Made by a program: the position numbers. Positions 57,101 to 60,100 of a stretch of DNA of 64,000 nucleotides are shown one piece after another (within the stretch, counting starts at the first letter, position 1; each line of letters opens with the position of its first letter). Location: assembly GCF_000026545.1 (NCBI RefSeq), contig NC_011601.1. One strand, written 5' to 3'. The stretch is from Escherichia coli O127:H6 str. E2348/69 (lineage in GTDB: Bacteria; Pseudomonadota; Gammaproteobacteria; Enterobacterales; Enterobacteriaceae).

Positions 57101-60100
57101 AGATTGTACTTCCGCCAGTAGTTGACGCTTCACGCGCTGTTCAAGGAGAGATTCTAATTCATAAGAGGTGTCGAAGTGGTTTTCGACCGCGTTCTTGGAC
57201 GCATGAGTTACCAGGAGGATTTCTTTGATCCCTGCAGCCACAATCTCGTCAACAATGTACTGAATCATTGGCTTGTCGACGATCGGTAGCATCTCTTTGG
57301 GTATCGCCTTAGTGGCAGGCAACATATGCATCCCAAGACCCGCTACCGGTATAACTGCTTTTAAATTCGTCATTATTTTCCTACCTCTAAGTGGCTGATA
57401 GTGCGTAAATTATTGCCATAGGTTAGCCAAACGGTATGGCTATATACCATAGCTTAGTTCCGCATAACTTTGATTAAACCTTACGATAACACTACACACC
57501 ATCAGCATCTGGGTTACTCGGATTACTCGGAAATCCACATACTGATAATTTAATCAGTACCTCTTTCCGAATAATCGTAGTCCAACCTGGTCCTTTTTTC
57601 TCTGACTCGTCTGCATTACTCAGAAACAAACGTTATGTCGTCTTTTTTGGCATGAACGAATTCATACTGCAGAGTTCGATCCAGACCTTGCGACAGCGTA
57701 TACGGTGCCACAAAACCTGAAGAATGCACTTTCGTTGCGTCAAACTGTGTTGTTGCGCAGAATTTTTTCACGCGCACAGAGCTGACAGCGTATTTTTTGC
57801 CAGTAATTTTGCTCAGGATATCAAAGCAATATCCACCCAGCATTCCTAGTGGGTAAGGCAAGTGCATAGAAGGGATCTTTTTGTTTAGGCTTTGTTCAAC
57901 TTCAGCAACCAACTGGTTCATATTCAGGTCTGGCTTATCAACGTAGTTATAAACCTCGTAACCTGCGGCAACATTCTTCAGTTTGTACTTGATAAACTCA
58001 ACAATGTTTCCAACATAAGCCATGGACTTATAGTTAGTCCCTGCGCCCACCATCATAAACTTGCCGCCAGCGATCTGTTTCAGCAAGTTATAGACGTTAC
58101 CGCGGTTCCGTTCACCGAAGATAACGGTAGGACGGATGATGGTTAATGAACGTTCTGTTGGTGCTTTGTTATACCATTCACGCAGCACTTCCTCTGCCTG
58201 CCACTTACTTTTGCCGTAGTGGTTGAAAGGATCGTGTGGATGGTTTTCGTCAGGGTTGTGTTTGTTCAAACCATAAACAGCAACGGAACTGGTAAAGATG
58301 ATATTTTTAACGCCATTTTTTTCCATGGCCGCCAGCACATTGCGGGTACCCTGAACGTTGACATCATAATAGAGAGAAGTAGGGCTGACGTCATCGCGGT
58401 GTTCCGCTGCCAGTAGTACAACAGTGTCAAAACCGGCTAACGCCTGGTCGAGTGCCTGTTGATCACGAACATCGCCAATCTGTGTGATTTCTGGATAAAA
58501 GTGGCTCTGCTGTTTGTCCAGGTTCTTGATATTAAAGTCAGCAATTGCCGTTTCAAGTAGTCGGGTTCCTACGAATCCGGAAGCTCCTATGAGCAAAACG
58601 TTATCGTTCATAAATCACTTTAGTCTGGTTGTTACGTAAGAAACACAAGATAAAGATGAGTACCTTCCCTGAGTAGTCAATGCTGCCCAGCCCCAGCTTT
58701 AACAGTTAGTGTGAGGATTATAATCTTTTAGAACATTATATCCAGTAAGTTTATGAATGGTCGCAAATCTACTCCCTCCGTTCTGGCAATCTAAAGTTAA
58801 TCTTTTCCACATTAACAATGTGGTGATTAACTCTGTCGATATCGACGGAGCTTTGCCCTTTTTCATTCACCGCATGAACATTTGCAAGTGACAGCAGTGT
58901 TTCTTTTTTCGCCATAAAGACGCCGCGAACGTCTTTGCGCATGTCGAAGTTCATGCTCAATGCGGGTCCAACTGAGGATTCCTGCATCACCTTGATATTT
59001 CGCATAAAAAGATGTTGCGGTTTGTTGTGTAACTCCAGCGACGCACGCTTCATCTCAATGTTAGTCAGCGCCACAAAGGAGACAGCATTCCCGGCAGAGA
59101 TTTGGATACCGCGCAATTTATAAGCAAGATGGGTGTTATCCATTTGAATATTATTCACTCGGAAATTTTGCGGTATTGAGAGATATTTGCCTTTAATTAC
59201 CCCATAGCCGATTAACATCCCAGCGCTATTAATCATTTCAATATTATCAATCACGAAATTGTCACAACCGTAAATAGCAACTGTCGCGTTATCAATGCCT
59301 GCTTTCTTGCTGAAATCCGGCGTGATATTGCGGGCTTTGATATTACGAATAACAAAATGTTTACCATTTTCAACATGGATCAACTGCCGACAATCCGATC
59401 CCGTGATATTCGCCACGACAAAGTTTTTCACTGCCTGGTCTTCCGGGTAGTTATTATCGTAGGTACTTCCCGCAAGGCCTATGCCGATACCCCAGTTGAT
59501 TTTGCCGTTGGTACAGTTGATGCGCTCGATGACATGGTCAGATATCAAAATATCACGGTCGTTAATCGCCACGTTCCATTCAATGGCGTCGCCCTGTAAA
59601 TCACTAAATTTACAGTTGGTGATGTTGGCACCGATAATCTGGTTATGAAATCCCTGGCGTAAGATGGCGTAATTAGCGTGGCTAACGGTCAGGTTATCGA
59701 TGGAGAGGTTACGCATTACTCGTTTGTTTTTGCCGCCGATATAAATCTGCGTTACCGGACCAAAGCCGCTCATCGTCAGCCCTTTGATGGTGCAGTCAGA
59801 GCCACGCACATCCAGGGTGATGTTATGCATACTGCCACCCTCCTCCCCTGTCACCTGGCTGCTGTCCTGTAAGACAAATCGCCCTCTGCCGTTGCCGCGC
59901 AGGCTTCCAAGGATGTGTAACGTTTTACCTGCAGGAATGAAGATGCCGGTGTTGATATTGTCGCAAACCAATCCGGCAGGCACGACGACCGTTTGCCCTT
60001 CGCCGAAGGCTTGTTTAAATGAGGCGATCCAGTCGTGTGGGTTGTAGTCGTTAATGTTAACGCTTTGTCGGGCGGGAAGTGCACGGGCGAAAGGGGTATG

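What the first reader, a model, noticed from the sequence alone, without database searches (positions are those of the whole stretch)
57616..58611. Two distinct 4-epimerase genes flank galF (Gnu-like upstream, Gne-like downstream)
A 331-aa SDR epimerase (57616..58611) lies between wcaM and galF, and a 339-aa GalE-family epimerase (55151..56170) is the first O-antigen gene. In E. coli the first type (Z3206/Gnu) has been reported to epimerise GlcNAc-P-P-Und to GalNAc-P-P-Und, and the second (Gne) to make UDP-GalNAc. Having both suggests GalNAc at the reducing end and again internally in the O unit.
Basis: partly seen in the sequence, partly recalled or inferred. Interest (0 to 1): 0.3.

Follow-up and report, generated by a model that had tools for sequence, protein, structure and literature searches.

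The report
Known Gnu plus Gne epimerase pair
The window is the O-antigen region of enteropathogenic E. coli O127:H6, and the two sugar 4-epimerase genes flanking galF are the already published Gnu/Gne pair that supplies the first and second N-acetylgalactosamine of the O127 repeat unit, so the finding is correct but ordinary.

Summary
The observation and the interpretation both hold, and both are already published. The window is 100% identical to E. coli O127:H6 E2348/69.

- **Gnu.** The 331-aa SDR (57616..58611, minus strand) lies between wcaM and galF. It is 100% identical in protein sequence to the O157:H7 Gnu (Z3206 type, WP_000999466.1), the type UndPP-GlcNAc 4-epimerase.
- **Gne.** The 339-aa protein (55151..56170, minus strand) is the first gene after the JUMPstart/ops element.
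  - It belongs to the GalE family and is 99.4% identical to the Gne of an O86-type strain.
  - It is 50% identical to K-12 GalE and 25% identical to Gnu.
  - It has Ser300 where E. coli GalE has the bulky gatekeeper Tyr299.
- **Next gene.** It is 337/338 identical to crystallised WbnH. That GalNAc transferase uses UDP-GalNAc (the Gne product) on GalNAc-PP-Und (the Gnu product).
- **Published structure.** The O127 unit ends in GalNAc(α1-3)GalNAc.
- **Prior record.** Cunneen et al. 2013 Table S2 lists O127 as needing and having both genes.

Gne and GalE share one clade and cannot be separated by a tree alone.

Interest is low and the novelty rating is "already known".

The parts
57616..58611 (-). 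gnu: 331-aa SDR, UndPP-GlcNAc 4-epimerase (Z3206 type)
   Evidence: The ORF is. It is 100% aa-identical to the O157:H7 protein WP_000999466.1. Motifs are GASGFVG, S109 and Y132xxxK136. It sits in the Gnu clade of the tree. GC is 45.0%.
56480..57373 (-). galF, the conserved gene between the two epimerase genes
   Evidence: NCBIfam TIGR01105 scores 687 bits against a cut-off of 659. It is the only part of 55151-58611 shared with gnu-less genomes.
56208..56246 (-). JUMPstart with the ops element GGCGGTAGCGTG (56219..56208), marking the start of the O-antigen operon
   Evidence: Read directly from the sequence and found by regex search.
55151..56170 (-). gne: 339-aa clade-A (GalE-family) UDP-GlcNAc/UDP-GalNAc 4-epimerase, first O-antigen gene
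   Evidence: GalE model TIGR01179 scores 425 bits. It is 99.4% identical to the Gne of an O86-type strain, 50.3% to K-12 GalE and 24.6% to Gnu. Ser300 replaces GalE Tyr299. GC is 33.0%.
54116..55132 (-). wbnH-type GT4 alpha-1,3-GalNAc transferase, which consumes the products of both epimerases
   Evidence: It is 337/338 identical to PDB 4XYW WbnH. WbnH transfers GalNAc from UDP-GalNAc to GalNAc-PP-Und.
58769..60163 (-). wcaM, last colanic-acid gene and upstream boundary of the gnu cassette
   Evidence: NCBIfam NF007517 scores 1023 bits. Homology with K-12 ends about 16 nt after its stop codon.
58717..58744 (-). Sigma-70-like promoter candidate (TGGATA-16-TATAAT, 10/12) in the wcaM-gnu spacer
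   Evidence: This is a consensus match only, and the number of such sites in the region is no more than the shuffles give.
44833..45570 (-). GT2 glycosyltransferase (WbiP-type beta-1,3-Gal transferase acting on GalNAc), a later step of the same O unit
   Evidence: RefSeq annotates it as a glycosyltransferase. The literature describes WbiP of E. coli O127 E2348/69. It was not analysed further here.
43926..44825 (-). alpha-1,2-fucosyltransferase (WbiQ type), last sugar of the O unit
   Evidence: RefSeq annotation and literature on WbiQ of O127. It was not analysed further here.

Best explanation
This is the two-epimerase arrangement that E. coli O127, like O86, O90 and O125, uses to place GalNAc at positions 1 and 2 of its O unit. 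WecA, encoded elsewhere, makes Und-PP-GlcNAc. Gnu (57616..58611) is a soluble NAD-dependent SDR. It inverts C4 of the lipid-linked sugar by transient oxidation to the 4-keto intermediate and re-reduction through Tyr132/Lys136/Ser109, giving Und-PP-GalNAc. Gne (55151..56170) is a GalE-family enzyme whose small Ser300 opens the sugar pocket for the N-acetyl group. It interconverts UDP-GlcNAc and UDP-GalNAc. The WbnH-type transferase encoded next to gne uses that UDP-GalNAc to add the second GalNAc alpha-1,3 to Und-PP-GalNAc. WbiP and WbiQ then add Gal and Fuc, and Wzx/Wzy export and polymerise the unit. Shown here: sequence identities, gene order, motifs, the gatekeeper residue and co-occurrence. 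Taken from the literature: enzyme activities and the O127 structure. Inferred: that the same chemistry operates in this strain.
For: - The window is 100% identical to E2348/69 O127:H6, with the annotation.
- Gnu is identical in protein sequence to the O157:H7 enzyme. Per Cunneen et al. citing Rush et al. 2010, that enzyme acts on UndPP-GlcNAc and not on UDP-GlcNAc.
- Gne is 99.4% identical to the Gne of an O86-type strain that has the same gnu-galF-gne-GT4 order. In O86, knock-outs of either epimerase alter the LPS.
- Ser300 replaces Tyr299. Active-site size decides whether UDP-GlcNAc is used.
- The adjacent GT4 is 337/338 identical to WbnH, whose donor is UDP-GalNAc and whose acceptor is GalNAc-PP-Und.
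- The same genome has a separate housekeeping galETKM operon whose GalE keeps Tyr299.
- The O127 unit contains GalNAc(a1-3)GalNAc. The cluster has three glycosyltransferases for four sugars and no initiating transferase.
- Cunneen Table S2 lists O127 as needing and having both genes.
- 112 genomes carry this gne allele family and 112 carry the contiguous gnu-galF-gne trio, whereas gnu occurs in only 24% of genomes overall.
Against: No enzyme assay or knock-out exists for the O127 proteins themselves. Function is transferred from identical or near-identical proteins in O157 and O86. I could not read the primary biochemical papers (Rush 2010, Wang 2002, Woodward 2010, all not held), so their results are cited second-hand through Cunneen 2013. 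Earlier work assigned the wcaM-galF gene as a UDP-GlcNAc epimerase, and a 2007 paper title speaks of 'overlapping substrate specificity'. Gnu has no hydrophobic segment that would explain how it reaches a lipid substrate, and no solved structure is closer than E=2e-17. That the 112 genomes are the same set is inferred from equal counts, and many of them are clonally related.
Confidence: 0.9

Rival explanations
1. The 331-aa protein is a second UDP-GlcNAc 4-epimerase, as originally annotated 'gne', redundant with the 339-aa enzyme. WecA would then transfer GalNAc-1-P directly from UDP-GalNAc.
For: This was the original assignment of the wcaM-galF gene. A 2007 paper title reports three epimerases with overlapping substrate specificity in O86:B7. 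Gnu keeps the standard SDR epimerase motifs.
Against: [quoted passage not shown] In O86 both genes are individually required. The presence of gnu tracks GalNAc as first sugar in 104 of 115 serogroups. In the alignment Gnu lacks counterparts of the GalE residues N179, F218, R231 and Y233, which I recall as UDP-contacting residues; that role is from my own knowledge and was not checked here (the alignment is weak at 25% identity). Gnu's nearest profiles include lipid-substrate SDRs such as HpnA, 3beta-HSD/NSDHL and OleD.
Confidence: 0.04
2. The 339-aa protein is simply an extra GalE that supplies UDP-Gal for the Gal residue of the O unit. It would not be a UDP-GlcNAc epimerase.
For: It scores above the curated GalE cut-off and RefSeq names it GalE. 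The O unit does contain Gal. Clade A cannot be split into GalE and Gne by sequence alone.
Against: The genome already has a housekeeping GalE with Tyr299. Ser300 is the small-gatekeeper state seen in the human enzyme, which also uses UDP-GlcNAc (Cys307), and in PDB 6K0I (Cys). The adjacent WbnH-type transferase needs UDP-GalNAc and no other source is encoded. A bifunctional enzyme that makes UDP-Gal as well is compatible with the main explanation.
Confidence: 0.05
3. One of the two genes is a non-functional passenger, kept only by linkage to galF and the O-antigen cluster.
For: gnu is occasionally present 'in excess of need' in some serogroups (10 such cases for gnu or gne).
Against: Both ORFs are intact with complete catalytic motifs. 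All 10 nucleotide differences between O127 and O157 gnu are synonymous. The trio count equals the gne-allele count, 112 and 112. The O127 structure requires both.
Confidence: 0.01

Closest known systems
E. coli O157:H7 Gnu (Z3206; RefSeq WP_000999466.1), the type UndPP-GlcNAc 4-epimerase of Cunneen clade D
   Same: The amino-acid sequence is identical and the locus between wcaM and galF is the same.
   Different: There are only 10 synonymous nucleotide differences. O157 has a single GalNAc and no gne, whereas O127 adds gne for a second GalNAc.
E. coli O86 gne1 (gnu) / gne2 (gne) pair with wbnH
   Same: The order gnu-galF-gne-wbnH-gmd-fcl-gmm-manC-manB is the same. Gne is 99.4% identical, Gnu 99.7%, and the GT4 has the identical RefSeq protein. 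Both O units begin GalNAc(a1-3)GalNAc.
   Different: The downstream half of the cluster (wzx, wzy, later transferases) differs, giving O127 rather than O86.
E. coli K-12 GalE (group 1 UDP-Glc 4-epimerase, gal operon)
   Same: Gne shares the fold and family, the catalytic S124/Y149/K153 and most UDP-contact residues.
   Different: Identity is 50.3%. Gne has Ser300 instead of Tyr299, lies in the O-antigen operon rather than the gal operon, and has 33% GC.
GnaB / TviC / WbpP (clade B UDP-GlcNAcA 4-epimerases)
   Same: They are also SDR 4-epimerases of N-acetylhexosamine derivatives.
   Different: Neither protein belongs here. The TviC model NF011728 gives 77.5 bits against a cut-off of 760 for Gne and no hit for Gnu.

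Membership tests
Gnu (clade D UndPP-GlcNAc 4-epimerase) | Sequence falls with the characterised O157 enzyme | tested here: met
   It is 100% aa-identical to O157:H7 WP_000999466.1. In the NJ tree it groups with 82-88% identical enterobacterial homologues, far from GalE/Gne.
Gnu (clade D UndPP-GlcNAc 4-epimerase) | [quoted passage not shown] | tested here: met
   K-12, which lacks gnu, has only a 174-bp spacer there.
Gnu (clade D UndPP-GlcNAc 4-epimerase) | SDR epimerase catalytic apparatus (GxxGxxG, Ser, YxxxK) | tested here: met
   GASGFVG at residue 9, plus S109, Y132 and K136, invariant in 30 homologues.
Gnu (clade D UndPP-GlcNAc 4-epimerase) | O unit starts with GalNAc, and the cluster has wzx/wzy but no initiating transferase | tested here: met
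   The O127 structure and Table S2 are (structure taken from the literature).
Gnu (clade D UndPP-GlcNAc 4-epimerase) | [quoted passage not shown] | not testable with these tools
   This is reported for the identical O157 protein (Rush 2010 as cited). The primary paper is not held.
Gne (clade A UDP-GlcNAc 4-epimerase) | Member of the GalE/Gne clade A | tested here: met
   TIGR01179 scores 425 bits against a cut-off of 262. Top PDB hits are GalE enzymes at E 1e-105 to 1e-119. Tree.
Gne (clade A UDP-GlcNAc 4-epimerase) | Enlarged sugar pocket: a small residue at the E. coli GalE Tyr299 position | tested here: met
   Ser300 aligns with Tyr299 of K-12 GalE and Cys307 of human GALE.
Gne (clade A UDP-GlcNAc 4-epimerase) | Located in a polysaccharide gene cluster while a separate galE sits in the gal operon | tested here: met
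   It is the first gene after the JUMPstart. galETKM lies at 701-706 kb of the identical genome record.
Gne (clade A UDP-GlcNAc 4-epimerase) | A non-initial GalNAc in the glycan and a UDP-GalNAc-dependent transferase | tested here: met
   The neighbouring gene is 337/338 identical to WbnH. O127 structure.
Gne (clade A UDP-GlcNAc 4-epimerase) | UDP-GlcNAc/UDP-GalNAc interconversion in vitro | not testable with these tools
   This is inferred from the 99.4% identical O86-type protein and the O86 literature.
GnaB (clade B UDP-GlcNAcA 4-epimerase) | Match to the TviC/WbpP-type model | tested here: not met
   NF011728 gives 77.5 bits against a cut-off of 760 for the 339-aa protein and no hit for the 331-aa protein.
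Canonical GalE (group 1, galactose catabolism) | Tyr at position 299 and gal-operon context | tested here: not met
   Ser300, O-antigen operon context, and the true GalE elsewhere in the genome.

The most novel reading that the evidence does not exclude
Gnu has no hydrophobic or membrane segment and no structure has been solved for it, yet its substrate is lipid-linked. Its gene co-occurs with gne and wbnH in this allele family: the gne-allele count and the contiguous-trio count are both 112. The evidence does not exclude that Gnu works only when docked to WecA and/or the WbnH-type transferase, channelling Und-PP-GalNAc in a membrane-associated complex rather than acting as a free enzyme. This is speculation. 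Nothing in the window tests it.
Probability: 0.1. Interest if true: 0.35.

Novelty: already known. Interest (0 to 1): 0.07.

Why it matters
It matters little as a discovery. The gnu/gne division of labour was set out by Rush 2010 and Cunneen 2013, and O127 is explicitly listed as having both genes. The practical value lies in annotation. RefSeq labels the 339-aa gene 'galE', which hides its role as the UDP-GalNAc supplier. The pair correctly predicts the GalNAc-GalNAc start of the O127 unit, an H type 3 blood-group mimic in the literature. The locus also illustrates that tree placement cannot separate Gne from GalE. Context and the gatekeeper residue are needed for that.

Tried and rejected
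- **Structure of Gnu.** An AlphaFold2 model built from 30 homologues (81-100% identical) came back poor: mean pLDDT 61.9, with 128 residues below 50. I ran no fold search on it because matches would be meaningless.
- **Primary papers.** Rush 2010, Wang 2002 and Woodward 2010 are not held. Their content is cited only through Cunneen 2013 and later papers.
- **Literature search for Z3206.** It returned mostly irrelevant papers, and one search term was rejected for its colon.
- **Housekeeping galE.** The first 'distant' hit I took for it (H56) turned out to be a capsule-region galE with Ser at the gatekeeper position. The real gal operon took three look-ups to find.
- **Clade-B reference sequences.** None (WbpP/TviC) could be fetched for the tree. 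Exclusion of GnaB rests on the curated TviC HMM score.
- **Promoter and terminator scan.** It found no more sites than the shuffles give. The candidate promoter upstream of gnu is only a consensus match.
- **Second large protein search.** I did not run one for Gne because near-identity to the O86-type protein already settled its placement.

Full report
**Identity of the window.** The stretch 43800-58700 is 100% identical to the chromosome of E. coli O127:H6 E2348/69 (NZ_LT827011.1). The RefSeq annotation of that record gives the following order, all on the minus strand of the window:
- wcaK, wcaL, wcaM;
- a gene named [quoted passage not shown];
- galF;
- "galE";
- a GT4 glycosyltransferase;
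- gmd, fcl, gmm, manC, manB;
- the O90/O127 wzx, an acetyltransferase and the O90/O127 wzy;
- a glycosyltransferase and an alpha-1,2-fucosyltransferase;
- gnd.

**Observation.**
- 57616..58611 encodes a 331-aa extended SDR. It matches Pfam Epimerase at 8.5e-31 and has GASGFVG, Ser109 and Tyr132-x3-Lys136.
- 55151..56170 encodes a 339-aa protein. It scores 425 bits on the curated GalE model against a cut-off of 262.
- The ORF list extends the second ORF to a TTG at 56239. That extension runs over the JUMPstart and the ops element GGCGGTAGCGTG at 56219..56208. The real start is the ATG at 56170, behind an AAGGAGG site.
- galF (56480..57373) lies between the two genes and wcaM (58769..60163) is upstream.

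**The 331-aa protein is Gnu.**
- Its sequence is identical to that of an O157:H7 strain. Both carry RefSeq protein WP_000999466.1, and the 10 nucleotide differences are all synonymous.
- O157 is the type strain for Gnu. According to Cunneen et al. 2013, Rush et al. 2010 showed that the O157 enzyme has no activity on UDP-GlcNAc and converts UndPP-GlcNAc to UndPP-GalNAc.
- The gene is present in 1314 of 5426 complete E. coli genomes, always annotated the same way. These include O157:H7, O104:H4 and O166:H15 strains.
- Homologues at 81-92% identity occur across Enterobacterales, including Citrobacter, Enterobacter, Kluyvera, Cronobacter, Salmonella, Mixta and Xenorhabdus.
- K-12 lacks the gene and has a 174-bp wcaM-galF spacer. 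Homology between K-12 and the window ends about 16 nt after the wcaM stop and resumes about 5 nt before the galF ATG. gnu therefore lies in a replaceable cassette of about 1.4 kb.

**The 339-aa protein is Gne.**
- It is 99.4% identical (N130S, K318N) to the corresponding protein of an O86-type strain that has the same gnu-galF-gne-GT4 order.
- It is 50.3% identical to K-12 GalE, about 53-54% to human GALE and to PDB 6K0I, and 24.6% to Gnu.
- In a neighbour-joining tree the two window proteins fall on opposite sides of the deepest split: Gnu with the enterobacterial Gnu homologues, Gne inside the GalE clade.
- At the position of the E. coli GalE gatekeeper Tyr299 and human Cys307, Gne has Ser300. 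Cunneen et al. summarise that active-site size at this position decides whether UDP-GlcNAc is accepted.
- The same genome carries a separate galETKM operon whose GalE keeps Tyr299. This meets the published contextual criterion for calling a clade-A gene gne.
- Neither protein is a GnaB. The TviC model gives 77.5 bits against a cut-off of 760 for Gne and nothing for Gnu.

**The neighbour ties the two together.** The GT4 encoded at 54116..55132 is 337/338 identical to PDB 4XYW, WbnH of E. coli O86. [quoted passage not shown] Its donor is the product of Gne and its acceptor is the product of Gnu.

The cluster has three glycosyltransferases for a four-sugar unit and no initiating transferase. This fits initiation by WecA. 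The later enzymes WbiP (beta-1,3-Gal transferase) and WbiQ (alpha-1,2-Fuc transferase) of O127 are described in the literature.

**Prediction against known chemistry.** The published O127 unit is ->2)-L-Fuc-(a1-2)-D-Gal-(b1-3)-D-GalNAc-(a1-3)-D-GalNAc-(a1->. The first seven genes of the O86 and O127/O90 clusters are reported as more than 96% identical.
- Cunneen et al. 2013 describe the same logic for O86 (gne1 = gnu, gne2 = gne, both required).
- Their Table S2 lists O127 with two main-chain GalNAc, gnu needed and present, gne needed and present.
- The same reasoning was later applied to O125.

**An independent check from genome counts.** 112 complete genomes carry this gne allele family at 90% identity or more. 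112 carry the contiguous gnu-galF-gne segment. gnu is in only 24% of genomes overall. The equality of the two counts suggests complete co-occurrence. I could not list the accessions, and many of the genomes are clonally related.

The proposed refutation, "339-aa protein within canonical GalE", would have wrongly rejected a correct call. Gne and GalE are one clade and cannot be separated by sequence alone. NCBIfam and RefSeq both label the protein GalE. The discriminating evidence is the gatekeeper residue, the operon context, the separate housekeeping galE and the UDP-GalNAc-dependent neighbour.

**Mechanism, and what remains inferred.** Both enzymes have the SDR 4-epimerase apparatus. The standard mechanism, from established knowledge of the family, is hydride transfer from C4 to tightly bound NAD+, rotation of the 4-keto sugar, and return of the hydride to the opposite face. 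That these particular proteins do this on their respective substrates is taken from identical or near-identical proteins, not tested here.

How Gnu recognises a lipid-linked substrate is open.
- It has no hydrophobic segment; the maximum 19-residue Kyte-Doolittle score is 1.45, in the Rossmann beta-1 strand.
- No solved structure is closer than E=2e-17.
- In the weak alignment it lacks counterparts of GalE residues N179, F218, R231 and Y233. That these residues contact UDP in GalE is my recollection, not something tested here.
- Its best non-self profile hits include SDRs with lipidic substrates: HpnA, 3beta-HSD/NSDHL and OleD-type reductases.
- An AlphaFold2 model from a shallow alignment was too poor to use, with mean pLDDT 61.9.

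**Verdict.** The feature is already known, down to the serogroup. Interest is low.

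Noticed in passing
window 43800-54089, versus NZ_CP059840.2: Another E2348/69 assembly (NZ_CP059840.2) matches only the gnd-proximal 69% of the O-antigen query at 99.8%. The match stops near the gmd/wbnH-type boundary (H10). That laboratory stock may carry an insertion, rearrangement or deletion in its O-antigen cluster.
   Followed up: no
window 57374-58768, versus L005 6329-6502: gnu sits in a replaceable cassette of about 1.4 kb. K-12 has an unrelated 174-bp spacer instead. Homology breaks about 16 nt after the wcaM stop and about 5 nt before the galF ATG. In gnu-less genomes only galF plus about 17 nt of 55151-58611 is conserved.
   Followed up: partly
window 55151-56239: The mechanical ORF starts at a TTG at 56239 and reads through the JUMPstart/ops element (ops at 56219..56208). 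The true start is the ATG at 56170 with an AAGGAGG site.
   Followed up: yes
window 54116-58611: Base composition steps sharply along the locus: gnu 45.0% GC, galF 50.8%, gne 33.0% (GC3 23%), wbnH-type 34.4%, gmd 52.2%. This suggests a mosaic origin for the locus.
   Followed up: partly
L007 5397-7663 (NZ_CP103626.1): A third cluster type has gnu-galF-gne (90.9% aa)-GT-gmd-fcl-gmm. Where O127 has manC/manB it has ISAs1, IS256 and retron-type reverse-transcriptase pseudogene remnants.
   Followed up: no
L006 2263-3661 (NZ_CP086623.1): The O86-type strain used for comparison has its wzy annotated as frameshifted with an internal stop. It may therefore make only short O antigen.
   Followed up: no
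L003 1504-2523 (NZ_CM132268.1): A further galE-family gene sits in a kps (group 2 capsule) region. It is 56.8% identical to Gne and also has Ser at the gatekeeper position. It may be another Gne-type enzyme labelled GalE.
   Followed up: partly
window 46745-47461: The ORF list gives a 238-aa GTG-start ORF for the O-acetyltransferase, whereas RefSeq calls a 654-nt gene. The literature notes that the O127 and O90 acetyltransferases differ at the 5' end.
   Followed up: no
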